Source of the DNA: an uncultured Clostridia bacterium
GTDB taxonomy: Bacteria > Bacillota > Clostridia > Christensenellales > CAG-314
Reading direction: 5' to 3'
Length of the DNA: 64,000 bases
NCBI GenBank assembly: GCA_947625115.1
Contig: CANQND010000002.1
Coordinates: 3,692 to 67,691 of the forward strand
In this document: in pieces, positions 20,454-45,554 of the stretch
Layout of the letters: each line of letters opens with the position of its first letter
How positions within the stretch are numbered: position 1 is the stretch's first letter
Position numbers and translations under genes: made by a program
The notes under the pieces: model-generated
Seen by the model: only the letters and a program-made list of their open reading frames with translations
What the model was told of the DNA's origin: nothing
Databases searched by the model: none

Positions 20454-20455
20454 AT

Positions 20456-31097: not shown

Positions 31098-33023
31098 TTA
31101 ATTAAAATTCATCGAATTCCACGAGCGGGTGCGGGCTTCGTCGCAGTCGTACTCAAAAGCTCTTGCGTCCGCCTCGTACATATGTACCTTGTACACGTTA
31201 GAATGAGTGTTGCCGTTGTAAATTTGACGGGTTTCTTTCCACAGCATTACTCTCCCGCGACTGATACCCATATTGAGAAAGTGCCAATCCGTCCAAGCAC
31301 CGTTTACCAACGCGCTTTGCAGAGAGTGGAAAGATTCGTGTACTATCGTGCCGAACGTCCAATCGATATTGAGCGTACACGACAACTTAAACTGTATACA
31401 TTTGCCACCGTCGCAACACAATCCGCCCGCCGTTTGGTTTTCGAGTTCATCTAACAATTCCACTTTGGGGAAGTTTTCGGATACGGGCAGACGAAGTATC
31501 TGATACACCGAACGCACCGCCTGACGAAGCCTGTTTTCCATTTCATCTCGTTCCAGACGTTGCCACACGCTCTTGTCGTCTGTTCCCAAAGTGCAGTAAC
31601 GCGCGATCATTCCGCATTTGGCAAAAACCGATTCGTTGCTGTCCACAATGAGCCTTATGTTGTTTCTGTCTATGTCGCGAATGAGGTCGTAATTGAAACC
31701 GCCGTAAACGCTACGCTGTTTTTCGTACTGCGAAAAGTCGCCCCAACCGGAGTCTATAACCAAATACACCGCCGAGAGGTGTTCGAGATAGTTAAGTACT
31801 GCCTTACTGTGCGCGTTGGAAATACGTCTGCATTTATCCTGCCAACGAGCGTCGCCCGCGCCGTGCAATTTGAGAAGTTGGCTGAACCCGCAAAATCCCA
31901 AAAAGGGCATAGACTGCAAAATTTCGTCGCCGTTGACTTCGTTTACTATTTTTCTGGCGATGAGTTCTTCCTTGGCAGAGGCGTAGACGGGCATAGATAT
32001 GTATTCCAGACTTATGTCCGCTATGGACACGTCGTCGCCCTCTTCGCCCGCAAGTTCCATTGCGCGCTTGTTGAGGTGAGCGGTGCCGCTTGTGTCCGTC
32101 AAGTAAATTTTCAACCCCCGTTTGCCCAAACGCATTGCAAGCATAAGCAACGCGTCGCATTTCTCCACGGGTAACGACAGGGCGTTTTCAACAATGCAAA
32201 CGGCGTTTTGTTCGCAGATGTAGCCGAACAATGTTTGCAAAAAATCTTCTTCCTTGTCTGCAAGTCCGCTTGCTTCCACGCACAGCAACTTGCCGTCATC
32301 GCCGCATTGATAAGCGGCAAACAGGCGAGCGTCGTCCGTCAACGGGGTGCTTAGCACAACGGCGTTGGCTTTGCCTCCCTCGGTGTACTCGGGCATAGGA
32401 AACACTTCGTAATCGCGGCGGTAGTAAGTTATATCCTTGATGTAGGCGTTTGCCGTCTGCACGATAACGCGCTGTTTTGCAGTTTGGAACAGCTTTTCGC
32501 AATCGTCGAGGTATTCGGCGGCGCGCTGTTTGAGATCGCCGAGCTGTAACAGAGGAACGTCCGTTACAAAGTTACATTCTTTCAACAGTTCGCGAGAACG
32601 CGCGGCGCACGACAAGGCTTGCGTACACAAATCGACGTCGGTTACCGCTCCGCCGAAAACGCGGCGGTACTTGACCGTTTCTCCGAGAGCGGCATTCAAA
32701 TCAGTGGCGAACTTGGCAAATTTTTCCACTATGGCGGCGGTTTTTCCGTAGCCGTTTTGGTTCGCCTCGGCAATAGCCTGCTCGAAGTACTGCTTTGCCG
32801 CAACGTAGTTTTCCTCTGCAAACCCGTCCGCATACGCCAACAAACGCAACTTGGCGTTCAGGCGCAGGCGTAACGCTTTGGCGTTGTCCCGCTTGTCGTC
32901 AAACAGGTTGGGGTTGTCTATTATCGCGTTGAGGCACTCCGACTCGGAATGAAGTTTTTTCAAATCCAGACAATCGAAATATGCCTTGTTGATACGTGAA
33001 AGTTGTTCCGAAAGAGAAGCCAT
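31098..33023 (-). CDS. g7: 641-aa protein, helical/TPR-like N-terminus, C-terminal HExxH (zincin-like) module
   Basis: 'GTIVHESFHSLQ' (HESFH at nt 31326-31340) is followed 51 residues later by 'YEADARAF', a possible gluzincin third ligand. The start lies 1 nt after the g6 stop. Confidence 0.6.
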   Translation of the reverse strand: MASLSEQLSRINKAYFDCLDLKKLHSESECLNAIIDNPNLFDDKRDNAKALRLRLNAKLRLLAYADGFAEENYVAAKQYFEQAIAEANQNGYGKTAAIVEKFAKFATDLNAALGETVKYRRVFGGAVTDVDLCTQALSCAARSRELLKECNFVTDVPLLQLGDLKQRAAEYLDDCEKLFQTAKQRVIVQTANAYIKDITYYRRDYEVFPMPEYTEGGKANAVVLSTPLTDDARLFAAYQCGDDGKLLCVEASGLADKEEDFLQTLFGYICEQNAVCIVENALSLPVEKCDALLMLAMRLGKRGLKIYLTDTSGTAHLNKRAMELAGEEGDDVSIADISLEYISMPVYASAKEELIARKIVNEVNGDEILQSMPFLGFCGFSQLLKLHGAGDARWQDKCRRISNAHSKAVLNYLEHLSAVYLVIDSGWGDFSQYEKQRSVYGGFNYDLIRDIDRNNIRLIVDSNESVFAKCGMIARYCTLGTDDKSVWQRLERDEMENRLRQAVRSVYQILRLPVSENFPKVELLDELENQTAGGLCCDGGKCIQFKLSCTLNIDWTFGTIVHESFHSLQSALVNGAWTDWHFLNMGISRGRVMLWKETRQIYNGNTHSNVYKVHMYEADARAFEYDCDEARTRSWNSMNFN

Positions 33024-33024
33024 A

Positions 33025-34536
33025 TTACTTGTCGTCGTCCGTCAAACGGTACGGATCTTCCGTGTTGTTTTGAGAGTTTTGCTCTTGTTGGTTTTGCTGG
33101 TTGCTTTGAGGTTGTTGAGAACCGCCCATAGCGAACTGTTTCAACATCTCGTCGTCGCCCTCCGAAATAACGTCGGGTTGAACGTGAATTTTTTGCTCTG
33201 GTACGTCATCGTAGAGTTCTTCGTCTTGCATACTGCGTTCGCTGATGTCCTCCGAAATATCCTGCAACTGACTGAGATATTCCTTTGCCTCGTTGTTTAC
33301 GCGGAGAGCTTCGTTCTTGACGCGTATAAGAGCCATAGACGCGCTTTCGGCGTTTTTGCGCCCGTAGTTGCCCGAAAGCACCGCCACGATGTCGCCGAAA
33401 TCGAGTTGGCTGATAAGGCGACCCGCATTTGCGGGGTGAGCGTCGATCTCCGCCTGTAACGGGAGCAGTACTTCCAACTTGTAGATGTCCAAAATAGCCA
33501 AACGCGCTTTGTTGCTTTGCTGTTGAGCCTGCAACATTGCTTTAAGTTTTTCCTGTTCCGCTTGCAAACGTTTTATATTTGTGGCAAGCGCGGCTCTGCG
33601 CTGTTGAAGCGTAACGTTGTCGCCGTTGTTTTCCACTTCTTTGAATATGCCCTGCAATTCCACGCGTATATCGGCAAGTTGTTGCTCTATTTCGTTGATA
33701 CGGCTGCCGATCTTCCCCGTGGGGTCGGTCAGGCGGCTTTCTTCCTGTTTGAGGCGTTCGCAGAAACGCTGGAAGTCGTTCAACGCCTGTTGCGCGCCCG
33801 ACAGCTGTCCTACGCCGTCCTCTTTGTAATGGGGGAACGGTTTTTCGGCTCGGTCCTTGGGTTTAACTTCTTCCGTCATCTGCGCCCATTTGGAAGCGGA
33901 CTCTATTGCCGCGTCCATCTCGGCGAGGTCGGAATTTGTGCAGAATGCGTTTAGCAAGTGACTGCGTACGTTCATCAAAGCAACCATTATGTGGCAAGCG
34001 CACTCACACGCTTGCTTACTGCTGAAATCGCAAACGCCCTCCAACGCTACCAACAAAGCCGTAGCCTTTTTCTTAATTTCGTTTAGTACTTCCTCCTGTT
34101 GAACAATTTGCTCTCCGAATATCGCGACATTGCCAAGAAGAGTATCTATCGCGCTTATGGTAGTCTGCACCGTCTTGACAATTTCCTCGCGCGCGCTCGG
34201 TTGAGATTGTTCTTGTTTGTTTTTGTTTTTCATAATCTTCTTTACCTGTCCTTGTAGTTTTTGTATCTTTTTTATGTCCGCTTCGTCTTGTATTTCCGTC
34301 AGCTCCACAACTATGTCGGCAAGATCCCTCAAACTGTCCTTTACCTTACCGAACCCGTTGTTTACGCCGTAGATACACAGTTCCAAGATGTGTTCTATCG
34401 TTTCGATAGCCAAGGGCTTTGCGTCCTTGTAGAAACCGTGTCTGACGATATAGTCGGCGGTAAATTTGGGATTTACGCCCAAATTCCTCTTGGCCAACAC
34501 CGCCTCTATGCGTTGCATCATATTTTTCATTTCCAT
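33025..34536 (-). CDS. g6: 503-aa predicted helical/coiled-coil protein with Gln/Asn-rich acidic C-terminal tail
   Basis: Long heptad-like stretches ('INEIEQQLADIRVELQGIFKEVE', 'IKRLQAEQEKLKAMLQAQQQS'). Tail 'GGSQQPQSNQQNQQEQNSQNNTEDPYRLTDDDK'. RBS AAGAGGTG. Confidence 0.6.
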   Translation of the reverse strand: MEMKNMMQRIEAVLAKRNLGVNPKFTADYIVRHGFYKDAKPLAIETIEHILELCIYGVNNGFGKVKDSLRDLADIVVELTEIQDEADIKKIQKLQGQVKKIMKNKNKQEQSQPSAREEIVKTVQTTISAIDTLLGNVAIFGEQIVQQEEVLNEIKKKATALLVALEGVCDFSSKQACECACHIMVALMNVRSHLLNAFCTNSDLAEMDAAIESASKWAQMTEEVKPKDRAEKPFPHYKEDGVGQLSGAQQALNDFQRFCERLKQEESRLTDPTGKIGSRINEIEQQLADIRVELQGIFKEVENNGDNVTLQQRRAALATNIKRLQAEQEKLKAMLQAQQQSNKARLAILDIYKLEVLLPLQAEIDAHPANAGRLISQLDFGDIVAVLSGNYGRKNAESASMALIRVKNEALRVNNEAKEYLSQLQDISEDISERSMQDEELYDDVPEQKIHVQPDVISEGDDEMLKQFAMGGSQQPQSNQQNQQEQNSQNNTEDPYRLTDDDK

Positions 34537-34548
34537 TGCCGCACCTCT

Positions 34549-35640
34549 TTACCCTTTGTTGACCGAAGCGAGGACGTGAGCTACCAAATCCTTTGTGGCG
34601 TGAGGTATGCTCTCCCACCAATGGTTGCAAAACGCCAATACGTCGTCGGGATAGAATATGTAGTCGTTTTTGGTTTGACTTGCCTTGCGTTGAAGTTGCG
34701 CCAAGGGCAACATTCCCTCGCTTTCGAGATACTTTTTGTAACCGACTAACCTGCGGTTGCGACTGCTTGCAAAACACAAATAGTAGTCGTCGTCGGGTTC
34801 GATTGTGTTGTTTTGCAAAAATTCCTTGTCGGTAATGCGGCAGGGCATTTCGTTTTGGTGAATGAGATACAGCCTCAACTCGGAACGGTTGGTAAAGTAC
34901 TCTATCGCCGAAGTTTCCTTTTTGCCCAAACGGTAACGGCTGTTTGCCCAATCGGAAAAGGTTTCGCCGTTTACGTACATCAAGCCGAAAAGCGGAGTTC
35001 TGCCGTCGTGCAACGACATATTCAACAAAGAAGTTATGCGCGCACTGTCGTCCGACTCGGGAACGCTCGTTTCGCGACGGGCGGGTATTTCGTCCAACAA
35101 ACCCAAAGAGAACATCTGACCCGCCTTTTCGTCGTAGTCGAAAGAGCGGTTTTGACCGTTACGCAATTGGTCGGGAGGGTTTTGCAACAAGTCGAGATGA
35201 CGGCGGGCGGCGATTTTGCGCAGGTACACCGATTTAGACACCGTTTTGCCGCGAAATTCGTTGCGCCAAATTCTTTCATAGTAGTTGCAAGCCACCTTGA
35301 AAGCCGTTATGTTGTCCACATTGGCGTGATTTGTTTCGTAGTAGTAGGCAAGCCGCAAAAGCGCGTTGGGATTGCCGCCGAGAGCCGCCTGTTTGCACAG
35401 TTCCACCGCTTTGGTTATCTTTTCGTGGGCAAGTTTGGCGTTTTGGTGACTGTTGTCCACGCGCGACAGGGTTTGCAACGCTTCGTGAAAGAGAATTTCC
35501 GACAGCGTGAATTTTTCGGAGTTTTCCGTTGTGATCTCGAACTCCTTGATAGTTATCGGTTTTTTGCATTTGACGCACACAAATTCGCCGCTGTACAATT
35601 CGTACACATCTCTTTCCTTACCGCATTTTTCACAACGCAT
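34549..35640 (-). CDS. g5: zinc-ribbon plus Sel1/TPR-like repeat protein (363 aa)
   Basis: ORF 34549..35697, trimmed to ATG 35640 (RBS GGGAGGAA). N-terminal 'CEKCGK-x15-CVKCKK' is a zinc ribbon. 'AALGGNPNALLRLAYYYETN' is Sel1-like. The start overlaps the g4 3' end by 11 nt. Confidence 0.65.
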   Translation of the reverse strand: MRCEKCGKERDVYELYSGEFVCVKCKKPITIKEFEITTENSEKFTLSEILFHEALQTLSRVDNSHQNAKLAHEKITKAVELCKQAALGGNPNALLRLAYYYETNHANVDNITAFKVACNYYERIWRNEFRGKTVSKSVYLRKIAARRHLDLLQNPPDQLRNGQNRSFDYDEKAGQMFSLGLLDEIPARRETSVPESDDSARITSLLNMSLHDGRTPLFGLMYVNGETFSDWANSRYRLGKKETSAIEYFTNRSELRLYLIHQNEMPCRITDKEFLQNNTIEPDDDYYLCFASSRNRRLVGYKKYLESEGMLPLAQLQRKASQTKNDYIFYPDDVLAFCNHWWESIPHATKDLVAHVLASVNKG

Positions 35641-38600
35641 ATTGTTCCTCCCTGATAGCCGTAGGCGACTGTTCGACGGGCGTTTGAAGTTCCACAACGG
35701 CGTTTTTCACGGTTATCTTGTAGTTTTCGGTTACGTCCGTTTCGCCGCTTTTTACGCTAACTTCCGCAGTCACTTGCAAATATCCGTCGTTCTGCTCTTC
35801 ATCGCTGACGTATTTATAAGTAATTTCGATTTCTTGTCCTGCCACAAGTCCCTGCTGTTCGTAGCCGAGCTTGTCGGCAAGATCTTCTATCGCGGGGCGC
35901 GTTTTGTATTCGCCGTTGTCCGTCAACGTGACGGTTACGGTAAGCTCAACTTCACTTATCGTAAAGTCGCAGGTAAGCGTACCCTGCAAGACGTAGTTTT
36001 TGTTGACGGGGTTCAGTGAAACTTCTTCCAAAACAGCCGTTGCAACGTAACTTCCCGCATTTACGGGTTCAACGTCTACATCGCCGTCTTTCAATTTGTA
36101 AGTTACCTTTAATGTGGGTTCTTCGCCGTCTATTTGTCCGCTAAACGACGGTTGAGGAGCTTGTCTTTCGCCGTTGTAGGTAAAGGAGGTTTGCTCGCTC
36201 CAACTTACCGTCAAAGTGGCTTTGGCAATTTCAAACTCGTGTTCCGCGTCGTTCAAAGCGTAGTTGGAAGAATACTGTTCGGAAAGTTGCGCCGTTACGC
36301 AATAATCCGAGCCTGCGTCAGTTTCCGCGCCATCGTAAGTGACCGCCGAAAGGGGTATTCCCTGAGCTACGTCGCCTGTGAAACTTTGCACTACGGGGTG
36401 TTGTTCCTGCCCGTTGTAAGTCAACTCGTCTTGGCTCCACACCGCGGTTACCGTCCTCTTGGTAATGGAAAATTCCTTTGTTAAATCGCCGCTGAGTTCG
36501 TAGTTTTTGTTTACGTCGGCGTCGGTCAAGGCAACTGTAACGGAATAACTTCCGACGTTGATGGCGTTGCCGTTCGTCAAATTGTCGCCGCTAACCGTGC
36601 AAACGGTAACGGGGATTTCCTCCTTGGCGGCTTTGCTCAACGTAACAGCGGGGACGATAGACTCGGCTTTGTAGGTGTAGTCAACGTCTGTCCAAGTAAC
36701 GGTCAATTCCATTTTGTCGATCGTGAGGCTGTGCGTGATATTTTCCAACTTGTAGTTTTTGTTTACGTCGGCGTCGGTGAGGCTTGCCGTGACGGTGTAT
36801 TCGCCCGCGTTCACGGCATATTCGCTACCGCCCTCTATACTGCAAGACAGCAGAGGTTGCTCCGACTTGACGCCCGTTACGGAAGCCGTTACGGTGTGTA
36901 TGTCGCCGTCGTAGGTAAACGTATCATCTCCCCATTCAACCGTAACGGTTGCGGGATTGATGACAAACACGCTGTCGGGATCGTCTATGACGTAGTTGAT
37001 ATTGTAGTTGCCCGACGTCGGCAAGCTAACCTTTATCGGGTACGAACCGACGTTTTTAGAATCCATCGCCGTGTAAGTGAGTTGCTCAACGGGTACACGG
37101 TCGCTCTCCACGTCGCCGTTTACCTCGGTAACCTTTATGTAGTGAGTATCTCCGTCGTAAGTGAACTCTTTGGATTGTTCCCAAACCACGCTGACGGTTT
37201 GCGCGGAAATGGTAAATTGACAGGTGGAACCCGCAACTATTTCGTAGTTGTTGTTTACGTCGTCGCCCGTCAAAACCGCCGTCGCCGTGTAGACGTCGGC
37301 ATTTACGGGGCTGGGGCTACTGTCGCCGCGATTACCGCTGTACGTTACGGAAAGAACGGGTTCTTCCGCCTTTACGCCGCTAACGCTTGCTTCGGGGTGT
37401 TGTTCTTGATGATTGTAAGTAAACGTCTGTTGCGCGCTCCAACTTACCGTCAACTGGTACTTGGCTATATCGTAGGTGTGAGTTTCGTCGCCCGCCTTGA
37501 TGGTGTAGTTGGTGGCAAAGTGATTGTCGCCGTCGTTGGACAGGGACGTACTTACGCTGTACCCGTTGCCTGCGTTCGTTGCCTCGTACACGCGATTGGC
37601 GTTTAACTGCGAGAGCAACGCCGCGCGTTCGGAAGCGACCGCATTGTTAACGGAGTCGATTGCGGGAGCTTGTTTTTCGCCGTTGTACGTCAAAGTTCCG
37701 CTGTTCCAAACAAGCGTTACCTCGCGCTGTGTGATAGTGAACGAATGGGAAGTTGAAGTTTCTTCCAACTTATAGTTCTGCTTATCGATGGCTTTTGTGA
37801 GAGCCGCAGTTGCCTGATAAGTGTTGACGTCCTTGTTTGGATCGGGCGTAACGGTAATTTCCAACCTGCCGTCTGCCGCAACGCCTTCACAATGCACTAC
37901 GGGTACGTGAGATTGACCGTCGTAGGTAAAGGTAAAGGTGTCCCACTCCACCATTGCCGTGGCTTGGGTTATTGCAAACGAATAGTCGGCGTCGTCGATA
38001 GTAAAGTTGGTGGCAAAACGCTCTTCGCCGTCCGTCAAATGCGCCGTTACCGTGTAGCCGCTTTGGACGTTGCGTTGCGCGCCCGTGTAGGTAAAGTGGT
38101 TTGCTTTGCCGGGCAGTACAACTCCGCTTTCGCCGTCCGATTCGGCATCGTCTACTTTGCTGACTTCGGGGTGTTGATACTCGCCGTTGTAAACAAAACT
38201 GTTGTTATTCCAAGTAACGGAGATATGTCTTTTTCCTATCTCGAAATCTTCGCTTGCTCCGTTGGACAAAGCGTAGTTGTTGTTGTAGAGTGAGGTATCG
38301 TTGAGAGCCGCAGTTGCCGTATATTTACCTGCGTAAACGCCGAAGTGACCGTCCAAGCCGCTTTGTTGCGTACTCAGCGTAACGGTCAAGCCGTTCTCAA
38401 CGATGTCGTCGAGATCCTCATCGAAACTGCCCTCCGCTTTACTTACCGACGGCTGTTGCAACTTGCCGTTGTAGACGTAGCTTTTTTTCGAGTCCCAACT
38501 GAGCGTAAGCTCGATTTGTTTTATCGTAAAGTTGCGCGTCGTTTCGGTAAGGGTGTAGTTGTTGAGGTCTTGCGCCTCGGTCAGACTTATCTCGACTGTG

Positions 38601-40873
38601 TAAGTGCCTGCGTTTGTCGGTTGTTGCTCGGACGCGTCAAATCTGCTGCCGTTGTGCAAAGAACCGCTACGGCTGTGCGAAATTTGCAAAGAATGATTTT
38701 CCTCGCCCAGACCCGTCACTGTCGCCTCGGGAGAGTGTTGTTGCTTGTCGTAGGAGTACGCCACCGAGCCGCCGCTCTCGCCGCCCTTGTCGTCCCAGAC
38801 GGGTGTAAGTTGAGCCTTTGCGATATAAACGGTTTTTGCCGCGCCTTGCACTATTTCGTACTGATTTGCCTGTTCGCCCGTCAACGACAGGGTTATATTG
38901 TAGTTGCCCGCGTTGCGCAACACCGCTTGCGTTGTTCTCTTTGTTGCTTGGTTAAACGAACCTGCGGAGTTTTCGATAGCCCAATCCAATTCGTCGTCGT
39001 TGATGACGTTGCCCTCGTCAAAACTCAACGTGTAGGTCTGTTCCTGCCCGTTGTAGGTGATGACGTTCTGCAATTTGTTGACGGTGCCGTCCTCCGCCCA
39101 ATTTACGGTTACTTTGCGCTTGGTAACGGTAACGCGAACTTCGTCGCTACTGAATGAAGTAAGGTCGGAATCCGCCGAATGTGACGTTACCGTGCAGGTG
39201 TAAGTTCCGCCCTGCTTGAAAAACACGTGTTCGAAGAGGAACTCGTCCTGCGTTTTGTCGCTCCACGCTTCGCCGCCCGTGTCCGTACCGTCCCAAGTCC
39301 ACTTGTAGGTGAGGGTGAAATCTTCGTCTGCCGCAACCGCGTCGGAGGAAAAGGCTATCTTTTCGCCGTACATAACAGTGTTGTTTGCGCAATCGGTCGT
39401 GACGGAACGTATGGTGGGCTTGCGCATAGTCCATTGCGGAGTCAGATACACGTCGGAATGTACTTGTTGCGAAAGTTCTTGCGAAAACGCCTGCGTCAAC
39501 GAGTGAGAGGCGGCGTCTTTGCCGTCGGCAACGCTCCAAGAAATATCAAACCCGTTGCGGGTAAGACCGCCAAGCCACTCGTCCGCAGTTGCCGCCACCA
39601 AATAGCGAAATTCACATTCGCCCGCTGTTTGCGGTGCGGAATTAGCAAAAGACTTGGGTATAGCGTAACTGCCGCTGTCGTTGTCCTCGTTGACGTACAC
39701 GCGGTAGATCTTGGCAAAGGACAGTTCCACCTGCTCCATACTTTCGGTAACGGGTTGTCCCTCGATGGATTTGCCGTTCACTTTCAATCCGTTGAAGATG
39801 TAGCCCTCGCTGTTGACATAGTTCCAATCCAAATCGTCGTCGCTTGTAATGTCGCTCTTTTCAAAGAAATCGTACTTTTGAGCATATTCGTCAACGTTGA
39901 ACACGTCCCCCTTGGAGCCGAACCACGTTTCCAACACCTGCCCGTCAAAGCGACGATAGCTGTCCAAAGAATAAGAAAATGTTATGTACACGTCGCTGTC
40001 CGACAGCCCCGACGGAAGCACCTTGTTAGCCAACGCAAAGGAACCCGTTGTGTTGTAGCCGTAAAGCAGGTTGCGCACGTCGTCTATGTTGTCTTTTTCG
40101 GCGATTATCTTAATGTTGGGGTCTGCTTTTGCAAAGAGGTCGGTATCGGTAAAATCAAATTTCACTTCTCCCGAAAACGCCACCGTATCGACGCCTTTTT
40201 CCGAGAAAATGCCGCCGTACACCGACAAAACGGGTTTGTCGTTAAAGGTGTCGGTAAGCACGGCTTTGTTGCCCTTACCCTCCATAACGGATACAACGTT
40301 GTAACCGTCGAGGTTCGGGTCGTATTCGTAAACCAGCGGACGAACGACGTCCTCTCTGCCCTGACCGAAATAGCCCCTGTCCAAAAAGCCCAAACTGCCG
40401 AGAGTTACCGCCGCCGCGAACAACGCCGTTACCGTAGCCAAGACGATCACCCACGCCTTTTTGGTTTGAGTGCCGTCGCGCACGGCTGTCGCGTAACCGG
40501 CGATGACAAGCAAAAGGGACAGCGTATGCACAACGCACCAGCTGATTTGCGCCCAAAAAGTCATTGCGCTGGACATAAAATTGTTCGCCGCCATAAGGCA
40601 CATTAACCCGAGCGTCACAAACAAATAGGGCAAAATTATCGCCAGACCGTAACGCAAACGGAAGTTACTTGCCAAAGAGAGAACCAAAACCACACAGTCG
40701 ATAGCGGCGGCTATTAACGGAATTAACCAAAAACGGAGTTCCGCTTGCGCGCACAAAAGCCAAACGAACACAGCCATATCCATAACCATATTCACAAACA
40801 GGCTTACGCACAAAAGCCACTTCAAACTGCTGTATCTGTTGGCAGCTTTGTCATTGCGAGATGTGTTCTTCAT
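35630..40873 (-). CDS. g4: 1747-aa polytopic-membrane-anchored surface protein with Listeria-Bacteroides-type repeats, an Ig-like domain and at least 12 MBG/'YNG'-type Ig-like repeats
   Basis: About 5 hydrophobic helices in residues 15-165 and no cleavable signal peptide. 'EGYIFNGLKVNG' and 'NGFDISWSV' are Flg_new-like. 'GGTYTCTVTS' is Ig-like. A recurring module follows: '(F/L)TYNG..Q.P...' then 'AG.YTVTA.LT....NY.L'. Examples are ITYNGQEQTY, YVYNGKLQQP, FVYNGEYQHP, FTYDGQSHVP, LTYNGEKQAP, FTYNHQEQHP, FTYDGDTHYI, FTYDGDIHTV, LTYNGQEQHP and FTYNGERQAP. RBS GAAGGAG. TAATG overlap with the g3 stop. No LPXTG or C-terminal anchor. Confidence 0.8.
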   Translation of the reverse strand: MKNTSRNDKAANRYSSLKWLLCVSLFVNMVMDMAVFVWLLCAQAELRFWLIPLIAAAIDCVVLVLSLASNFRLRYGLAIILPYLFVTLGLMCLMAANNFMSSAMTFWAQISWCVVHTLSLLLVIAGYATAVRDGTQTKKAWVIVLATVTALFAAAVTLGSLGFLDRGYFGQGREDVVRPLVYEYDPNLDGYNVVSVMEGKGNKAVLTDTFNDKPVLSVYGGIFSEKGVDTVAFSGEVKFDFTDTDLFAKADPNIKIIAEKDNIDDVRNLLYGYNTTGSFALANKVLPSGLSDSDVYITFSYSLDSYRRFDGQVLETWFGSKGDVFNVDEYAQKYDFFEKSDITSDDDLDWNYVNSEGYIFNGLKVNGKSIEGQPVTESMEQVELSFAKIYRVYVNEDNDSGSYAIPKSFANSAPQTAGECEFRYLVAATADEWLGGLTRNGFDISWSVADGKDAASHSLTQAFSQELSQQVHSDVYLTPQWTMRKPTIRSVTTDCANNTVMYGEKIAFSSDAVAADEDFTLTYKWTWDGTDTGGEAWSDKTQDEFLFEHVFFKQGGTYTCTVTSHSADSDLTSFSSDEVRVTVTKRKVTVNWAEDGTVNKLQNVITYNGQEQTYTLSFDEGNVINDDELDWAIENSAGSFNQATKRTTQAVLRNAGNYNITLSLTGEQANQYEIVQGAAKTVYIAKAQLTPVWDDKGGESGGSVAYSYDKQQHSPEATVTGLGEENHSLQISHSRSGSLHNGSRFDASEQQPTNAGTYTVEISLTEAQDLNNYTLTETTRNFTIKQIELTLSWDSKKSYVYNGKLQQPSVSKAEGSFDEDLDDIVENGLTVTLSTQQSGLDGHFGVYAGKYTATAALNDTSLYNNNYALSNGASEDFEIGKRHISVTWNNNSFVYNGEYQHPEVSKVDDAESDGESGVVLPGKANHFTYTGAQRNVQSGYTVTAHLTDGEERFATNFTIDDADYSFAITQATAMVEWDTFTFTYDGQSHVPVVHCEGVAADGRLEITVTPDPNKDVNTYQATAALTKAIDKQNYKLEETSTSHSFTITQREVTLVWNSGTLTYNGEKQAPAIDSVNNAVASERAALLSQLNANRVYEATNAGNGYSVSTSLSNDGDNHFATNYTIKAGDETHTYDIAKYQLTVSWSAQQTFTYNHQEQHPEASVSGVKAEEPVLSVTYSGNRGDSSPSPVNADVYTATAVLTGDDVNNNYEIVAGSTCQFTISAQTVSVVWEQSKEFTYDGDTHYIKVTEVNGDVESDRVPVEQLTYTAMDSKNVGSYPIKVSLPTSGNYNINYVIDDPDSVFVINPATVTVEWGDDTFTYDGDIHTVTASVTGVKSEQPLLSCSIEGGSEYAVNAGEYTVTASLTDADVNKNYKLENITHSLTIDKMELTVTWTDVDYTYKAESIVPAVTLSKAAKEEIPVTVCTVSGDNLTNGNAINVGSYSVTVALTDADVNKNYELSGDLTKEFSITKRTVTAVWSQDELTYNGQEQHPVVQSFTGDVAQGIPLSAVTYDGAETDAGSDYCVTAQLSEQYSSNYALNDAEHEFEIAKATLTVSWSEQTSFTYNGERQAPQPSFSGQIDGEEPTLKVTYKLKDGDVDVEPVNAGSYVATAVLEEVSLNPVNKNYVLQGTLTCDFTISEVELTVTVTLTDNGEYKTRPAIEDLADKLGYEQQGLVAGQEIEITYKYVSDEEQNDGYLQVTAEVSVKSGETDVTENYKITVKNAVVELQTPVEQSPTAIREEQYAL
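35750..39121 (-). repeat. intragenic array of divergent 75-95 aa Ig-like (MBG-type) modules within g4
   Basis: The protein-level periodicity is listed under g4. The copies are diverged at nucleotide level; no long identical DNA repeats were noticed by eye. Confidence 0.7.
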
Positions 40874-42498
40874 TACTTGCTCCTTCTGTATTTGACAGGT
40901 CCCCTGATCAATCCGTTACCGAGAGCCTTTACTCTGTCAAAGACGTAAACGTCCTTGCCCAAATGGAATATGAGCAAACCGTTGTACTCCTTGCAGGACT
41001 TGCTTTTTACAAACGCATGAGTCAAGCGCACGGCGGGACTTAGCAATTTGCGATAGTACTTGTAGTTTTTCGCGCCGAGCGGCGTTGCGTCGGGCTGTGA
41101 ACAGTTGGGACACAGATTGCTCAACTGCCCCGAATTGTTCTTGGTGTACCGCTTGTGACAGCACGGACACTCGAACGTCGCCTCGCTCGTCAAGCGCATT
41201 TTGTCAAAGGCAAATTCGAGATCGGCAGTAAGTCCGCCCTTTTGTTCGGGGTGGAAAATGTCCGTGTAGTACACTTCGGGACGACGGCACCCGCGGCATA
41301 TGCGTCTGCCGTCCGCCTCTTCCACTTGCGTAGCGCACGCCGTCCGCACGCAACCGTCGAGCGTGTTAGCCGAACAATCCACCAAAAACAGGTGCTTGCA
41401 AAATTCCGACTGCTCCGCAATTTGTTTTATGTCCGAAGCGGTAAGCCCGAAATTCTTTTTGTCGGGTTGCAAAATCCACCCCTCGTCGGAAACCGCCGAA
41501 GCAATGCGATTGGAGCGCACCAAGTGGTCCTTGCTGTGACAATTCAGACAGGACACGTCCACGGAGTTGTTGAGTCCTATCGTAACGCACAAAACGGCTT
41601 TGCCTCCCAACATAACGTTGTAGCGAGAAGCCTGCCATTTTATGGAAGAAAATCCCAACACCTTTATCTCGCTGCAATCCAGCACCAACGGACCGTTGGG
41701 AGAAAACTCGCGACGTTTGTCCTCCAAAATGTCCAAGTCTTCCTTGCTGAAAATAACATAGTCGGTAAAGGCGTTGTCGCCGTTTTCGTTTTCCTCTTCC
41801 ACGCACGCCGTCATCGCGGCAAAAACGCCGTCCCACAGCTTGGTGTGATCCACGCTGTTGTCCACGACGGATTCGTCCTTTGCGTCGTCGGGTGTACGGC
41901 TGATTATCTCCTTTATCTGCGCGCCCTCTTCTTTGGGAATGGGGTGGAAATATCCCCCCTCCTTGCGGAAGAACACCGTCCCCAAAAAGGGTTGCGACTC
42001 GCCCACGCCGTAGTTTGCCGTCAAGCGCAACGCCAAACCGCAGATTTCCACTTCGTTGTCCCTTGCGGCTTCAAACTGAAACGGTTTGCTGCTGTACAGC
42101 GGACGAAGTACTTCGGTGCAAAACCGTTGCGCCAACGCGTCGTCGTTTTGGCGTTGAGCCTCGTCCAACTTGCGCTGATAAGTCAAGAATGAATAGTTGT
42201 GGTGATAGTCCTGCGCAACCAAATCGATAAGGTTTTTCCACGCGCCCGCGTCGCCGCTTCCGTATTCGCCGCGCAAATGCGCAAACCAACTTGCGCCGTG
42301 GCTGTCAAATGCAAACCTGCCGCCGCTTTCGCTCGGGACGTCCCTGTCGTCGCTCAACACAAACACGTCCTCCGCCGTGCGAATAACGTTGCCATCTACC
42401 GACCTAATGGGAACATTTTTGATAAAACCGTTTTCAAACAGCCACACGATGCTCTCGAAAATGGCTTTGTACTTGTAGTTTACCGTCCTTGTAGCCAT
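40873..42498 (-). CDS. g3: 541-aa cytoplasmic protein with Cys-rich (multi zinc-ribbon-like) C-terminal half, unknown family
   Basis: Cys clusters 'CLNCHSKDH', 'CSANTLDGCVRTAC...ICRGC' and 'FECPCCHKRY...LCPNCSQ'. TAATG overlaps at both ends (42498 and 40873). RBS GGAGAGGTGAAG. Confidence 0.6.
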   Translation of the reverse strand: MATRTVNYKYKAIFESIVWLFENGFIKNVPIRSVDGNVIRTAEDVFVLSDDRDVPSESGGRFAFDSHGASWFAHLRGEYGSGDAGAWKNLIDLVAQDYHHNYSFLTYQRKLDEAQRQNDDALAQRFCTEVLRPLYSSKPFQFEAARDNEVEICGLALRLTANYGVGESQPFLGTVFFRKEGGYFHPIPKEEGAQIKEIISRTPDDAKDESVVDNSVDHTKLWDGVFAAMTACVEEENENGDNAFTDYVIFSKEDLDILEDKRREFSPNGPLVLDCSEIKVLGFSSIKWQASRYNVMLGGKAVLCVTIGLNNSVDVSCLNCHSKDHLVRSNRIASAVSDEGWILQPDKKNFGLTASDIKQIAEQSEFCKHLFLVDCSANTLDGCVRTACATQVEEADGRRICRGCRRPEVYYTDIFHPEQKGGLTADLEFAFDKMRLTSEATFECPCCHKRYTKNNSGQLSNLCPNCSQPDATPLGAKNYKYYRKLLSPAVRLTHAFVKSKSCKEYNGLLIFHLGKDVYVFDRVKALGNGLIRGPVKYRRSK

Positions 42499-45400
42499 TA
42501 CTTCACCTCTCCGAGTTCGTCCCTATCCAACACGGACTTTATGTCCTCCACCTTTTGCGCTTCCGCGCCGAGGTTTTTGCAAAAACTTTCGTCGTCGTTG
42601 TTTTCCAATTGGAAATTCCACAAACCGCGAATGTAGGCGACAAAGGTCTTGGGTAGCAAGGGGCGCAATTTGCCTTGACGGCTCTCTCCGCAAACGGGGC
42701 AAGCCGCCTCCCATTTGTCGTCAAATTCGATGACGGTGGGTCGCGGACTGCACTCGGCGTAACGGCACGTGCGGCAACTGCCCACGTCGTCGTATATGAT
42801 ACGGCACACTTCGTGTTCGCCCTTGCAACCGTTGCTTTTGCGGAAACACTGATCGCAAGCCGCGTAAAGTTCCGCCTCGGTTTTGCCGCGATATCTGTCG
42901 CTAAGCAAAATACAACCCTTTTCTTTCAGATAGCCGCAATGCGACATTGCGCAAATCTTCAAACAGGGCAGATTTCTGTCGTTGAGTTTTCCGCTGTTGC
43001 TCATTCTGCCGTGTTCGTGTTCCTTGTTGCTTGCCGAACAACGGTAGCCCTCTTCCGTAACGGAGCGTTTGAGCATATAACCGCAGTGGTCGCACTTGAA
43101 CTCGCGCGTGTTGATTTCGTTCATCACGCAACTCTCTTCGTTTTTGTACTTGCCGCTGTGCGAACAGATCAAGTCGTTGTCGCGCAAGACTTCGTAGTAC
43201 TCCTTGCGGGAAATTTGCTTGGTTTTGCCGCAGGTTTTGCACTCCACCGTAACGACGTCGCCGTTTTGGCGTTTGCTTTCGTTCGTTTCGTGCATAAGCG
43301 CGGGGTTTTCCTTGAAATGTACGCTACCGCCGTGATCGCAAATAAGCGTGTTTTTGCGTTTGAACTCCTCGTAGTCCTGTTGCGACATTAACTTTACGTT
43401 ACCGCATTTGTTGCAACGCACCGTTACCATTTGGTCGTTGTTGCTACCCGCAAGTATCGTTGCGTCGCCGCTGTTGGACGTCATCAAGCCTATCGCCGCA
43501 AAATACGCCAACGCAAAACCCTCCAACTTGTTCATATCCGCAAACGAGAAAATTTCAACGTTTTTGTCCTGTCCCAAACGGAACACGCGTCCGATACGTT
43601 GGTCCATAGCAAGCGGGTCGGGCGTAACCTGATAGTTTACGATCAAGTTGCACTTTTGCAAGTTTGCGCCCTCAGTCAAGGCAGCGTCTTTTACCACCAA
43701 GATGGCGTCGGAACGGTCGTTAAAGGCGTTTATCACGTTTTCCTGACTGTCCGCGTCGCTCAAAACAAGACGTTTGGAATATTTTTTGTCCTTTTTCAAC
43801 GCGGCGACCACCTCGTCGATAACGCTGTCCTTTTCGTCGAGTTCGTAATCGAAAAAGATAATCACGCGTTCCTTGGCGTGCTTGTCGAGTATCTGTTGCA
43901 AATAGCGATATTTGTAACCGAGCTTGTCGTCTGTTTCTTCGACGGGTATTATCGCCGTTTGATCCCACGCGTCCAAGCCGACGGCTTTGAACCGCTCGTG
44001 ATAGTACTCCACGTAACCGTTCTTTGTGTAGTGACGGTACGCGGAAGCTCTGTAAATTTTGTCAAACTTGCCCAAAGCCTCGTAGAGCATTTCGTTGTAG
44101 GCGTTTTTGTCGCTTTCCCATTCGCCCTTGACGGAGGATATGTACTTGGCAACGGACATCGTTTCGCCGTTGTATTTGACGGCGGGCAGAAATCCGCTGT
44201 CGATATTTGCGCGCGAATAGTCCGCCTCCGCGCCGTTATTTAATTGCAACAGGCAAATCTTGGAGTACACTTCTGTCGGCACGGGGAAGAGCAGGACGTT
44301 TTTGACGAGTTTGTTTGCGTCGATAAAGTTGCCGCCCTCGCTGTGCGCCGACTGCCTTATCATTATCGACCGCAACAACGCGTGGTACTCGCGCGCAACA
44401 ACGTCGATGATTTTGTTTTTTATTTCCTTGTTCTGTTTGAGAAAATTTTCCACGTGATTGGAACGGGCGTACTCCGTCAGATTGTCGTACTCTTCCTGAC
44501 TTTGTATTCCCTGCCCGCGCAACCATTCAAAAAACGCCTCTCTGTACGGGTGCAACATTATCGTGTCCAACTTCACTTTGCGAATGAAGTCGGTAACATT
44601 TGTGGCTCCGCGGCACATTGTTTTGAGATAGTATTGTTTTTCTTGAAGATACTTTGCCGAACGTTGCTTGTCCTCCTGCTCGGCAAAATCGTCGGGATTG
44701 CCGCCCTGACAGCGTACAAAGTACCACAAACGGAACATATTTTCAAGGTTGCCCGAGTGCGGCGTGGCGGAAAGCAACAGACAGTACGTTTGCGAACCCG
44801 TCGCTTTCTTGATAGACATCAATTGAGAGAGGAGCTTCATCGCCTTGGCGTACTCGCCCTCTTCTTTGCACAGGTGGTGAGCCTCGTCCACGACGATAAC
44901 GTCAAAGACAATGTTGTCGGGAATTTTCCACTGCGCAAAAACTTTCACGTCCACAATAACCGATTTGGCGGGGTGAATGATTTTGTCCGCGCTGTTACGC
45001 GTATAAATTTTGTTCAACACCGAGTAGAAATCGGTATTTGCGGGGTCGCCGTCGCGAACTTGTACGAGCTGACCTTTGCCCAGACCGAATTTTGTTTCGA
45101 TAACGTCTACCCAATCGTTGAACACCTGACTCGGCGTTACTATCAACATATTGCTTATGCGGTCGCGTTCGGCAAGTTCGCTTAGCACCACTCCCGCTTC
45201 GTAGGTTTTTCCGCTACCCACTACGTCGGCAAGCAAGCCGAAACCGCGCAGATCGCGCAACATCTGTTCGGCGGCGCGTTGTTGCTTGGAGCGAATAACC
45301 GCGCCTCCGCCGTGCTTTTTAGGGTCACGCTGAATACCGTAAACGCCGCTCGGACCTTTTTCGTAGTACCGCGCGTCTATGTTGAGTTGGCTGAAATCGT

Positions 45401-45554
45401 CAAACCTGTCCAAAGCCAAAATTTTTTCTTCCGCGCGGCTTATCCTGCTGGTGTAGGTCGTGCGGCGGTCGGTGAGATTTTGCTTTTGGTCCTCGGGATT
45501 CCAAGCCTTTTGCGAATTACCGCCTTTGGTAAACCTGATTTCTATATTTGCCAT
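42498..45554 (-). CDS. g2: SNF2-family (SF2) helicase/translocase with about 250-aa Cys-rich C-terminal extension (1018 aa)
   Basis: Motif I 'LADVVGSGKTYEAG'. Motif II 'VIVVDEAHHL' (nt 44877-44888). Motif III 'LLLSATPHSGN'. Motifs V/VI 'LTEGANLQ...DQRIGRVFRLGQ'. The C-terminal residues about 710-960 (nt 42675-43427) hold about 24 Cys. They include a duplicated module: 'VTVRCNKCGNVKLMSQQDYEEFKRKNTLICDHGG' and 'VTVECKTCGKTKQISRKEYYEVLRDNDLICSHSG'. Confidence 0.88.
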   Translation of the reverse strand: MANIEIRFTKGGNSQKAWNPEDQKQNLTDRRTTYTSRISRAEEKILALDRFDDFSQLNIDARYYEKGPSGVYGIQRDPKKHGGGAVIRSKQQRAAEQMLRDLRGFGLLADVVGSGKTYEAGVVLSELAERDRISNMLIVTPSQVFNDWVDVIETKFGLGKGQLVQVRDGDPANTDFYSVLNKIYTRNSADKIIHPAKSVIVDVKVFAQWKIPDNIVFDVIVVDEAHHLCKEEGEYAKAMKLLSQLMSIKKATGSQTYCLLLSATPHSGNLENMFRLWYFVRCQGGNPDDFAEQEDKQRSAKYLQEKQYYLKTMCRGATNVTDFIRKVKLDTIMLHPYREAFFEWLRGQGIQSQEEYDNLTEYARSNHVENFLKQNKEIKNKIIDVVAREYHALLRSIMIRQSAHSEGGNFIDANKLVKNVLLFPVPTEVYSKICLLQLNNGAEADYSRANIDSGFLPAVKYNGETMSVAKYISSVKGEWESDKNAYNEMLYEALGKFDKIYRASAYRHYTKNGYVEYYHERFKAVGLDAWDQTAIIPVEETDDKLGYKYRYLQQILDKHAKERVIIFFDYELDEKDSVIDEVVAALKKDKKYSKRLVLSDADSQENVINAFNDRSDAILVVKDAALTEGANLQKCNLIVNYQVTPDPLAMDQRIGRVFRLGQDKNVEIFSFADMNKLEGFALAYFAAIGLMTSNSGDATILAGSNNDQMVTVRCNKCGNVKLMSQQDYEEFKRKNTLICDHGGSVHFKENPALMHETNESKRQNGDVVTVECKTCGKTKQISRKEYYEVLRDNDLICSHSGKYKNEESCVMNEINTREFKCDHCGYMLKRSVTEEGYRCSASNKEHEHGRMSNSGKLNDRNLPCLKICAMSHCGYLKEKGCILLSDRYRGKTEAELYAACDQCFRKSNGCKGEHEVCRIIYDDVGSCRTCRYAECSPRPTVIEFDDKWEAACPVCGESRQGKLRPLLPKTFVAYIRGLWNFQLENNDDESFCKNLGAEAQKVEDIKSVLDRDELGEVK

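What the first reader, a model, noticed from the sequence alone, without database searches (positions are those of the whole stretch)
35630..40873. Giant polytopic surface-repeat protein embedded between cytoplasmic helicase and ATPase genes
g4 has about 5 N-terminal TM helices (nt about 40379-40873). These are followed by roughly 1580 residues predicted to be extracytoplasmic. That part contains Listeria-Bacteroides-type repeats, an Ig-like domain and at least 12 MBG/'YNG' Ig-like modules, and it has no sortase or C-terminal anchor. Repeat arrays of this kind normally belong to adhesins encoded as stand-alone genes. Here the gene is translationally coupled on both sides to zinc-ribbon and helicase-associated cytoplasmic proteins. 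One speculative reading is a surface sensor or decoy coupled through its polytopic anchor to intracellular effectors. Another is a surface structure whose assembly needs the ATPases.
Basis: partly seen in the sequence, partly recalled or inferred. Interest (0 to 1): 0.7.

Follow-up and report, generated by a model that had tools for sequence, protein, structure and literature searches.

The report
Surface repeat protein inside helicase operon
A 1747-residue membrane protein that puts a long chain of Ig-like repeats on the cell surface is a fixed core gene of an undescribed ten-gene helicase/ATPase/protease operon in gut Clostridia, which suggests the cell surface is wired to DNA-handling machinery inside.

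Summary
Gene g4 (35630-40873, minus strand) encodes 5 N-terminal TM helices, a ~420-residue head ending in an Ig-like domain, 12 tandem MBG-like repeats and no sortase or C-terminal anchor. It overlaps g3 by 1 nt and g5 by 11 nt. The claimed Listeria-Bacteroides repeats were not found.

g4 is not a passenger gene. In all 20 other independent loci that extend past g3, a 5-TM MBG protein of 1052-2121 aa sits between the g3 and g5 homologues, down to 21-22% g3 identity. The DUF4011 helicase-nuclease is missing in three loci.

Lys+Arg counts (178 inside, 15 outside, 18 orthologues) place the repeats outside the cell. g4 is the fastest-evolving gene of the operon, mostly in the distal repeats. Its TM bundle and the cytoplasmic loop motif SNFRFKY are conserved.

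Seven of the ten proteins match no Pfam, NCBIfam or PADLOC family. g3 folds confidently but has no structural match. I found no paper describing the system.

Best reading, inferred and untested: an outside-in sensor or anchor subunit of a new conflict-type system.

The parts
45568..47604 (-). First gene of the operon, 678 aa. Putative actin/Hsp70-fold (ASKHA) ATPase, on motif evidence only.
   Evidence: No Pfam, NCBIfam, PADLOC or PDB sequence hit. Invariant motifs DLGSD.LK (12-19), GG.D.D (268-273) and GG.VET (401-406) in 14 orthologues. hhalign against E. coli DnaK aligns only the first 70 residues, probability 1.4%. Present in every locus that reaches it.
42498..45554 (-). SNF2-family helicase, 1018 aa, with a C-terminal region carrying six CxxC pairs (Zn ribbons).
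   Evidence: Pfam SNF2-rel_dom, ResIII and Helicase_C. PADLOC DrmD/BrxH/DpdE/ZorD-like and NCBIfam DrmD at 133 bits against a 610-bit cut-off. CxxC positions.
40873..42498 (-). g3, 541 aa. Cys-rich protein of unknown fold. Its stop codon overlaps the g4 start by 1 nt.
   Evidence: No family hit. 179 representatives at E<=1e-3 among 1.84 billion proteins. 11 invariant residues, 9 of them Cys plus H369. AlphaFold2 mean pLDDT 87.5, with no PDB or BFVD match at E<0.02.
35630..40873 (-). g4, 1747 aa. Polytopic, surface-exposed MBG-repeat protein; the subject of the finding.
40379..40873 (-). g4 aa 1-165: 5-TM bundle. Near-invariant polar residues lie inside the helices (D32, D59, H116). The cytoplasmic loop motif is S-N-F-R-F-K/R-Y, with N70, R72 and Y75 invariant.
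   Evidence: Hydropathy, AlphaFold2 helices, alignments of 15-16 orthologues. 0 nonsynonymous and 5 synonymous changes against the strain in L027.
39119..40378 (-). g4 aa 166-585: extracellular head. It starts with the conserved GxFGQG...RP.VY.Y motif directly after TM5. An alpha/beta domain follows (aa 180-330, pLDDT 80-89). The head ends in an Ig-like domain (~aa 490-585).
   Evidence: Weak TpLRR hit (E=0.022) and strong phage-type Ig-like hits. dN/dS 0.14.
35942..39118 (-). g4 aa 586-1644: 12 tandem MBG-like (Ig-like) repeats of ~85 aa.
   Evidence: Own HMM. Pfam MBG_2 and MBG_3. The best solved relative is the LAR_0958 adhesin repeat 4ng0, E=0.017. dN/dS 0.83 against L027.
35633..35941 (-). 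g4 aa 1645-1747: degenerate 13th repeat and a free C-terminus with no anchor.
34549..35640 (-). g5, 363 aa. N-terminal Zn ribbon (CxxC...CxxC) followed by Sel1-type repeats. Its start overlaps the g4 end by 11 nt.
   Evidence: Gene call, junction, invariant C3, C6, C22 and C25, profile hits to Sel1-repeat proteins at E=9e-7.
33025..34536 (-). 503-aa helical, coiled-coil-type protein.
   Evidence: No family hit. Conserved position in the loci.
31098..33023 (-). 641-aa protein with an invariant C-terminal HExxH..Q motif. Putative zinc metallopeptidase, on motif evidence only.
   Evidence: H562, E563, H566 and Q569 are invariant in 13 orthologues. No Pfam or PDB hit. Second-fastest evolving gene.
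26500..31083 (-). 1527-aa DUF4011 SF1 helicase with a C-terminal MTES_1575 restriction-endonuclease-like domain. Optional module of the system.
   Evidence: Pfam. PADLOC PDC-S37 E=8e-115 and Hhe 7e-48. NCBIfam ProA at 399 bits against a 1500-bit cut-off. Absent in L013, L020 and L021.
25754..26500 (-). 248-aa helical protein with a Gly-rich acidic tail.
   Evidence: No family hit. Always directly upstream of the AAA+ gene.
24585..25742 (-). 385-aa classic-clade AAA+ ATPase (Cdc48 D2 / Vps4 / IetA-like). Last gene of the operon.
   Evidence: Pfam AAA E=6e-32 and Vps4_C 4e-6. PADLOC IetA 3e-32. PDB VCP-like ATPase 4e-63.

Best explanation
g4 is the membrane-spanning, surface-exposed core subunit of an undescribed chromosomal system of nine or ten genes. 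The system occurs in Christensenellales-type gut Clostridia.

Shown:
- The N-terminus is cytoplasmic, followed by a five-helix bundle.
- A conserved head and a chain of 5-19 Ig-like MBG repeats project outward.
- The gene always lies between two Zn-ribbon proteins, g3 and g5, with overlapping or near-abutting reading frames.

Inferred:
- g3, g4 and g5 are made in fixed proportion and form a membrane complex.
- The distal repeats and head meet something outside the cell. A phage that is adsorbing or breaching the wall is the most likely candidate.
- The signal crosses the membrane through the conserved polar TM bundle and the cytoplasmic SNFRFKY loop.
- g3 and g5 then recruit or release the cytoplasmic enzymes. 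These are the SNF2 helicase, the ASKHA-like ATPase, the HExxH protein, the AAA+ unfoldase and, where present, the DUF4011 helicase-nuclease. They act on incoming nucleic acid close to its point of entry.

I hold the structural claims (topology, core membership) at about 0.9. The sensor/anchor mechanism within a defence-type system is at the confidence given below.
For: Core membership:
- A g4-like gene with 5 TM segments and MBG repeats lies directly between the g3 and g5 homologues in L004/L005, L007, L009-L022, L023, L024, L026 and L027.
- The junctions are -11 to +25 nt in 17 loci, with one exception of 128 nt.
- The DUF4011 helicase is dispensable (absent in L013, L020 and L021); g4 is not.

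Topology:
- Lys+Arg total 178 inside against 15 outside over 18 orthologues.
- AlphaFold2 predicts five helices.

The TM domain is more than an anchor:
- D32, D59 and H116 inside the helices are near-invariant. N70, R72 and Y75 in the loop are invariant.
- There are no nonsynonymous changes in it between close strains.

Surface exposure and arms-race pattern:
- g4 is the least conserved gene in every lineage pair: 36% against 43-65%, 41% against 64-79%, 60-67% against 76-96%.
- Its dN/dS is 0.52, 0.17, 0.30, 0.14 and 0.35, against 0-0.15 for five of the neighbours.
- In the window pair the excess lies in the repeats (0.83; Fisher p=1.7e-14 against neighbours).
- The changes avoid conserved core columns of the repeat (p=6e-5) and favour distal repeats 4-12.

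Conflict-type partners:
- The SNF2 helicase is closest to DrmD/BrxH/DpdE/ZorD models.
- The DUF4011 helicase with an REase-like domain is closest to PDC-S37, ProA and Hhe.
- The AAA+ ATPase is closest to IetA.

Precedent for membrane sensing coupled to an SNF2-type effector: Zorya (PMC11946911). Computational precedent for conflict systems with TM segments and extracellular cadherin or FNIII parts: PMC7159879.
Against: - No function was tested.
- All matches to defence families fall far below curated cut-offs, so the partners are relatives, not members.
- The operon lies among housekeeping genes (MetRS, TilS, KsgA, a sugar-uptake locus). No integrase or other defence genes are nearby.
- Its chromosomal position is conserved within lineages. 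This is less typical of defence islands.
- No dN/dS exceeds 1, and in one pair (L011/L012) the repeats are not elevated. Relaxed constraint on a spacer would explain the rates as well as diversifying selection does.
- No methyltransferase or other self/non-self marker is visible.
- g3 has no recognisable fold, so its adaptor role is a guess based on gene position.
Confidence: 0.45

Rival explanations
1. Membrane tether with an exposed spacer. g4 only holds the helicase/ATPase complex at the membrane, where foreign DNA enters. The repeat array carries no information and drifts, or it changes to avoid being used as a phage receptor.
For: dN/dS in the repeats is high but never above 1. Repeat number varies freely, from 5 to 19. 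The TM bundle is the conserved part.
Against: A plain tether would not need five helices with conserved buried Asp/Asp/His. It would not need a conserved 420-residue head (dN/dS 0.14). It would not need to keep at least five folded repeats in every lineage, with the core repeat positions protected.
Confidence: 0.2
2. Polymorphic surface receptor for cell-cell (kin or partner) recognition, or for capture of extracellular DNA. Contact outside triggers DNA-handling enzymes inside. This would be a contact-dependent exchange or uptake system, not phage defence.
For: The array is of adhesin type (MBG; best solved relative is the LAR_0958 adhesin repeat). Its distal end is variable. The location is stable, chromosomal and outside any defence island. 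Two DNA translocase/helicase genes are present.
Against: The operon contains no relaxase, coupling protein, VirB4/FtsK-type pump, competence pseudopilus gene or ComEC-like channel. The five-helix bundle is too small to be an obvious DNA channel.
Confidence: 0.15
3. Surface structure or adhesin whose insertion, extraction or quality control needs the ATPases. The AAA+ unfoldase, the ASKHA-like ATPase and the HExxH protein would service the giant protein.
For: A Cdc48/Vps4-like AAA+ ATPase, a possible Hsp70-like ATPase and a possible metalloprotease are all protein-handling activities. g4 is large and polytopic.
Against: This does not explain an SNF2 helicase that is present in every locus, nor a DUF4011 helicase with an REase-like domain in most loci. 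Neither has a known role in protein export.
Confidence: 0.1
4. g4 is an inserted passenger adhesin gene unrelated to its neighbours.
For: MBG arrays are usually found in stand-alone surface proteins. The more remote database hits (P0006-P0009) have other architectures.
Against: g4 is present at the same position in all 20 other independent loci, across g3 identities of 21-100%. The junctions overlap or abut. The only full-length relatives found (P0003-P0005) all lie in this operon.
Confidence: 0.02

Closest known systems
Zorya type I anti-phage system (ZorAB membrane complex plus ZorC and the SNF2-type ZorD; PMC11946911)
   Same: Same logic: a membrane-embedded component is encoded together with an SNF2-family helicase and further soluble proteins. 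The SNF2 protein here gives weak hits to ZorD models (PADLOC E=3e-11; NCBIfam 19.7 bits).
   Different: There is no MotAB/ZorAB homologue. The membrane protein here is a single 5-TM chain with a huge extracellular Ig-like array, not a long cytoplasmic tail. The SNF2 protein carries Zn ribbons and no Mrr-like nuclease. The ZorD cut-off (1500 bits) is missed by far.
DUF4011 helicase-nuclease defence proteins (Hhe, ProA, PADLOC candidate PDC-S37)
   Same: The 1527-aa protein shares DUF4011, AAA_11/AAA_12 and an MTES_1575 REase-like domain. PDC-S37 E=8e-115; ProA 399 bits; Hhe 246 bits.
   Different: Those proteins are annotated as single-gene systems. Here the gene is an optional tenth gene of a larger operon, absent in three loci. 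It scores far below the curated cut-offs of 1500 and 2000 bits.
MBG-repeat surface adhesins of Firmicutes (for example Lactobacillus reuteri LAR_0958, PDB 4ng0)
   Same: Tandem ~85-residue Ig-like repeats with the W / Y-x-G / NAG-Y / NY signature. Pfam MBG_2 passes its cut-off. The repeat profile aligns end to end with 4ng0.
   Different: Anchoring is by an N-terminal 5-TM bundle, not by a signal peptide plus LPXTG. The gene is embedded in an NTPase operon. The PDB match is weak (E=0.017).
GAP1-N2-type GTPase-centred conflict systems predicted by Kaur et al. 2020 (PMC7159879)
   Same: These are computationally predicted conflict systems. They combine NTPases, sometimes HSP70, with TM segments and extracellular cadherin or FNIII-repeat proteins.
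   Different: No GAP1 GTPase, tubulin, GrpE or DnaJ is present here. The proteins show no homology to that system.
IetAS (AAA+ ATPase plus protease)
   Same: The last gene hits IetA models (PADLOC 3e-32; NCBIfam 101.8 bits). A putative protease (HExxH) is present in the operon.
   Different: The score is below the IetA cut-off (510 bits). The protease candidate is not a subtilase and is not adjacent to the ATPase.

Membership tests
MBG-domain surface proteins (Pfam PF18676 MBG_2 / PF18887 MBG_3) | Match to the Pfam model at or above the gathering score | tested here: met
   MBG_2 scores 27.0 bits on the whole protein and 36.2 bits on the C-terminal third, against a cut-off of 25. Orthologues carry precomputed MBG_2 or MBG_3 hits.
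MBG-domain surface proteins | Tandem array of ~70-90-residue repeats | tested here: met
   12 copies at aa 586-1644 by my own HMM, domain E-values from 2e-7 to 2e-35. Orthologues have 5-19 copies.
Sortase-anchored Gram-positive adhesins | N-terminal signal peptide plus C-terminal LPXTG, hydrophobic stretch and basic tail | tested here: not met
   No LPXTG-type motif and no C-terminal hydrophobic segment. The N-terminus has five TM segments, not a signal peptide.
Listeria-Bacteroides repeat proteins (Pfam Flg_new) | Match to PF09479 | tested here: not met
   No hit at E<=5 in the window head and none at E<=0.05 in 17 orthologue heads.
Zorya | ZorA/ZorB (MotAB-like) membrane pair | tested here: not met
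   No ZorA or ZorB hit for any of the ten proteins in PADLOC or NCBIfam.
Zorya | ZorD-type SNF2 helicase reaching the curated score | tested here: not met
   NF041790 scores 19.7 bits against a cut-off of 1500.
DISARM | DrmD at the curated score, together with DrmA, DrmB and a methyltransferase | tested here: not met
   DrmD scores 133 bits against 610. No DrmB, DrmC or methylase hits.
Hhe / ProA single-gene defence helicases | Score at or above the NCBIfam equivalog cut-off | tested here: not met
   ProA scores 399 bits against 1500; Hhe scores 246 against 2000. The domain set (DUF4011, AAA_11/AAA_12, MTES_1575) is shared.
IetAS | IetA at the curated score plus an adjacent IetS protease | tested here: not met
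   IteA scores 101.8 bits against 510. No IetS hit.
Anti-phage defence systems in general | Protection against phage or plasmid on expression | not testable with these tools
   Needs experiments.
Anti-phage defence systems in general | Location in defence islands or mobile elements | tested here: not met
   The flanks are housekeeping genes with no integrase. The position is conserved within lineages. No relatives were found in IMG/VR.

The most novel reading that the evidence does not exclude
This is a new class of bacterial immune or surveillance system. An extracellular Ig-like array, tens of nanometres long, acts as the receptor. It detects a phage or a foreign cell at the surface, before or during DNA entry. 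It signals through a novel 5-TM transducer and novel-fold Zn-ribbon adaptors to helicases, a protease and an AAA+ unfoldase. That would be a bacterial counterpart of a transmembrane pattern-recognition receptor wired to nucleic-acid effectors.
Probability: 0.3. Interest if true: 0.9.

Novelty: new variant of a known kind. Interest (0 to 1): 0.72.

Why it matters
Nearly all described bacterial defence systems sense invaders inside the cell. A few, such as Zorya, sense them at the membrane. A conserved operon that obligatorily joins a long surface-exposed Ig-like array to SNF2 and SF1 helicases, an AAA+ ATPase and a likely protease would make outside-in signalling to DNA-handling enzymes directly testable.

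It would also give a role to several protein families that now have none. The g3 family has 179 representative clusters and a confident model with no structural match. The 5-TM module, g5, the HExxH protein and the ASKHA-like protein are likewise unassigned.

The system lives in Christensenellales-type gut bacteria, a group of interest in human and animal microbiome work.

If the defence reading is wrong, the result still stands that an adhesin-type array is a fixed subunit of a helicase/ATPase machine. That alone is unusual and needs an explanation.

Tried and rejected
- Word-indexed search with g4 aa 1-592 returned nothing, not even the protein itself, so it was uninformative.
I therefore could not scan metagenomes for the 5-TM module outside this operon. 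The reverse question, whether g4-type anchors occur elsewhere, rests only.
- I suspected that the 248-aa protein and the AAA+ N-terminus were an ESCRT-III/MIT pair because of the Vps4_C hit. Pfam at E<=1 gave only noise for four and two sequences respectively, so I dropped the idea.
- Hsp70 identity of the first gene: there was no PDB or Pfam hit for the single sequence, the profile or any of 14 orthologues. hhalign against DnaK gave probability 1.4%. I kept it only as a motif-level suggestion.
- The AlphaFold2 model of g4 aa 1-686 was mediocre (pLDDT 59.6). Its fold search gave only weak FN3/Ig hits.
- The g3 model was good but matched nothing in PDB or BFVD.
- The TM-module profile against PDB gave nothing significant.
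- No tRNA, Rfam family or DNA tandem repeat is relevant to the finding.
- The promoter and terminator scans were at chance level.
- Literature searches for DUF4011, ProA, Hhe, MBG and Hsp70+SNF2 found no description of this operon.
- The passenger-gene hypothesis is rejected on synteny.

Full report
**1. What is in the window**

The minus strand between 47604 and 24585 carries ten tightly packed genes. In order they are:
- a 678-aa protein with no family match;
- a 1018-aa SNF2 helicase with six C-terminal CxxC pairs;
- g3, 541 aa and Cys-rich;
- g4, 1747 aa;
- g5, 363 aa, a Zn ribbon followed by Sel1 repeats;
- a 503-aa helical protein;
- a 641-aa protein with an invariant HExxH..Q motif;
- a 1527-aa DUF4011 SF1 helicase with an MTES_1575 restriction-endonuclease-like end;
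- a 248-aa helical protein;
- a 385-aa classic AAA+ ATPase of the Cdc48-D2/Vps4 type.

The g3 stop and the g4 start share one base (TAATG), with GGAG upstream. The g5 ATG lies 11 nt inside the end of g4, behind GGGAGGA. The genes on either side of the operon are housekeeping genes: a sugar ABC/glycosidase locus, TldD/PmbA, UDG, KsgA, TilS and MetRS. No integrase, tRNA or other defence gene is present.

**2. The g4 protein**

Hydropathy gives five segments within aa 17-164. AlphaFold2 gives five helices at 6-41, 46-68, 71-99, 103-131 and 136-165.

Across 18 orthologues there are always exactly five N-terminal segments. Lys+Arg total 178 in the N-tail and loops 2-3 and 4-5, against 15 in loops 1-2 and 3-4. 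By the positive-inside rule the N-terminus is therefore cytoplasmic and everything after residue ~165 is outside. This is an inference from sequence, not an experiment.

The bundle is not a bland anchor. D32 (TM1), D59 (TM2) and H116 (TM4) are near-invariant. The short cytoplasmic loop carries S-N-F-R-F-K/R-Y, with N70, R72 and Y75 invariant. The chain leaves the membrane through a conserved GxFGQG...RP.VY.Y motif.

The ~420-residue head has three parts:
- a well-modelled alpha/beta domain (aa 180-330, pLDDT 80-89) with a faint TpLRR-type signal (E=0.022);
- a poorly modelled middle;
- an Ig-like domain at ~490-585.

A 17-orthologue profile matches this Ig-like domain to solved phage-type Ig-like proteins. 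These are 9ncf_S at 1.5e-16, a tail protein (9c2d_S) at 5.9e-9 and T4 Hoc at 1.3e-8.

Twelve MBG-like repeats follow at aa 586-1644. They share the signature TV.W / F.Y.G..Q.P / NAG.Y.V.A.L / NY.L / F.I. Pfam MBG_2 passes its cut-off. The repeat profile aligns end to end with the LAR_0958 adhesin repeat, though weakly (4ng0, E=0.017). The copies are 21-33% identical and leave no trace as DNA repeats.

There is no sortase motif and no C-terminal anchor.

**3. Is g4 part of the operon or a passenger?**

The g3 family is small but real: 179 representatives at E<=1e-3 among 1.84 billion proteins, and no Pfam model. I fetched contexts in several ways:
- exact look-up of homologues;
- a pattern scan of 185,579 species genomes, which gave 15 loci, all Christensenella, Christensenellaceae, Borkfalkiaceae or unclassified Clostridia MAGs;
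- look-ups of the most distant g3 clades, at 21-22% identity.

In every locus that extends past g3 (20 independent loci besides the window's own contigs), the next gene is a 5-TM protein with MBG repeats, 1052-2121 aa long. It is followed by the g5 homologue, the helical protein and the HExxH protein.

The g3-g4 and g4-g5 junctions lie between -11 and +25 nt in 17 loci, with one exception of 128 nt. By contrast, the DUF4011 helicase is missing in L013, L020 and L021, where the 248-aa and AAA+ genes follow directly. L021 also lacks the HExxH gene.

The only full-length relatives of g4 found in the 5.8-billion-protein collection (P0003-P0005) all lie in this operon. The remaining hits share only MBG repeats and have other architectures.

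**4. Evolutionary pattern**

g4 is the least conserved gene in every comparison:
- 36% against 43-65% for the other six genes (window vs L004);
- 26% in the L007 lineage, within the range of the other genes there;
- 41% against 64-79%, 67% against 82-96%, 60% against 80-95% and 64% against 76-93% in four further pairs.

Between the window and a close strain (L027, dS ~0.035-0.045), dN/dS is 0.52 for g4 and 0-0.15 for eight neighbours. By region:

| g4 region | dN/dS | Nonsynonymous / synonymous |
|---|---|---|
| TM bundle (aa 1-165) | 0 | 0 / 5 |
| Head (aa 166-585) | 0.14 | 6 / 12 |
| Repeats (aa 586-1644) | 0.83 | 64 / 21 |

Fisher's test for aa 586-1747 (repeats plus C-terminal tail; 69 nonsynonymous, 24 synonymous) against the pooled neighbours gives p=1.7e-14. 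The replacements avoid the conserved core columns of the repeat (4 of 288 residues against 52 of 707, p=6e-5). They are concentrated in repeats 4-12, the membrane-distal ones.

Four more close pairs give g4 values of 0.17, 0.30, 0.14 and 0.35, against 0-0.10 for five neighbours. The HExxH protein is second, at 0.12-0.31. In one pair (L011/L012) the repeats are not the elevated part, and no value exceeds 1.

The pattern fits a folded, exposed array under weak or diversifying selection attached to a strongly constrained transducer. It does not prove positive selection.

**5. What the partners say**

- The SNF2 helicase is nearest to DrmD, BrxH, DpdE and ZorD models.
- The DUF4011 protein is nearest to PDC-S37, ProA and Hhe.
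- The AAA+ ATPase is nearest to IetA.

All three are far below the curated cut-offs, so they are relatives and not members.

Seven of the ten proteins match no Pfam, NCBIfam or PADLOC family. g3 gave a confident model (pLDDT 87.5, pTM 0.74) with no match in PDB or BFVD. The first gene has actin/Hsp70-like phosphate and adenosine motifs but no statistical support.

No relative of g3 was found in IMG/VR. I found no paper describing this operon. The nearest ideas in the literature are Zorya, a membrane complex plus an SNF2-type effector (PMC11946911), and the predicted GAP1-N2 conflict systems, which have TM segments and extracellular cadherin or FNIII parts (PMC7159879).

**6. Most likely mechanism**

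Shown: a conserved operon; g4 with N-in/C-out topology by the positive-inside rule; a constrained polar 5-TM bundle and cytoplasmic loop; a variable distal array; tight coupling to two Zn-ribbon proteins.

Inferred: g3, g4 and g5 form a membrane complex. The exposed head and array register an event at the surface, most plausibly phage adsorption or wall breaching. The TM bundle relays it. The cytoplasmic NTPases, the protease and, where present, the helicase-nuclease then act on incoming nucleic acid. I put this at about 0.45.

The rivals are:
- a pure tether with a drifting spacer (0.2);
- a contact or kin-recognition or DNA-capture device (0.15);
- a surface structure serviced by the ATPases (0.1);
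- a passenger gene (0.02).

Points against the defence reading are the housekeeping neighbourhood and the stable position within lineages. No self/non-self marker such as a methylase is visible, and there are no functional data.

**7. Verdict**

The gene is an ordinary kind of repeat protein in an extraordinary setting. It is an obligatory, polytopic, surface-exposed subunit of an undescribed helicase/ATPase/protease system. Function remains to be shown.

Noticed in passing
window 26500-31083; L013, L020, L021: The DUF4011 helicase-nuclease is the only gene of the operon with a strong match to a defence-candidate model (PDC-S37, E=8e-115). It is missing in three of the related loci, where the 248-aa and AAA+ genes follow directly. 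It therefore looks like an exchangeable effector module.
   Followed up: partly
window 40873-42498 (g3): The AlphaFold2 model built on a 55-sequence alignment is confident (pLDDT 87.5, pTM 0.74). It has no match in PDB or BFVD at E<0.02, so this may be a new fold. Nine Cys residues and one His are invariant.
   Followed up: yes
window 31098-33023: The 641-aa protein has an invariant HExxH..Q motif near its C-terminus (H562, E563, H566, Q569) but no peptidase family hit. After g4 it is the fastest-evolving gene of the operon (dN/dS 0.12-0.31 in four pairs).
   Followed up: partly
window 39119-39406 (g4 aa ~490-585): The closest solved relatives of the head's Ig-like domain are phage surface proteins. 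They are an 'Immunoglobulin-like domain protein' (9ncf), a tail protein (9c2d), T4 Hoc and decoration proteins, not bacterial adhesins.
   Followed up: partly
window 34549-35640 (g5) and 33025-34536, compared with L027: Synonymous divergence between the two close strains is uneven. dS is 0.009 in g5 and 0.088 in the 503-aa gene, against 0.035-0.045 elsewhere. This hints at recombination within the operon.
   Followed up: no
window 25754-26500 compared with L027 21688-22440: The 248-aa protein differs in length between close strains (248 against 250 aa). It ends in a Gly-rich acidic tail (…GGGKPDGNGNGGGVGDIGDIA).
   Followed up: no
L026 11774-17191 and 18511-19368: In this distant lineage the g4 head is ~240 residues longer (repeats start at aa 824). 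An extra 285-aa gene sits between the g5-like gene and the coiled-coil gene.
   Followed up: no
L016 11658-14906 (aa 1053-1071); similar in L022: A hydrophobic stretch lies near the C-terminus of these shorter g4 orthologues (…FVTAVVVGTD…). It is probably a beta-strand of the last repeat and not a second anchor.
   Followed up: no
window 47909-50458 and 5381-8044: Two large proteins have no Pfam match. One is an 849-aa predicted lipoprotein (signal peptide ending …VVAC) next to the sugar ABC transporter and glycosidase genes. It is not part of the operon and is absent from related loci. The other is an 887-aa ORF.
   Followed up: partly
window 19794-20828: The uracil-DNA glycosylase ORF, as listed, has a ~135-residue Arg-rich N-terminal extension. 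This is probably an artefact of taking the first start codon; the real start is likely near MERSYNGW.
   Followed up: no
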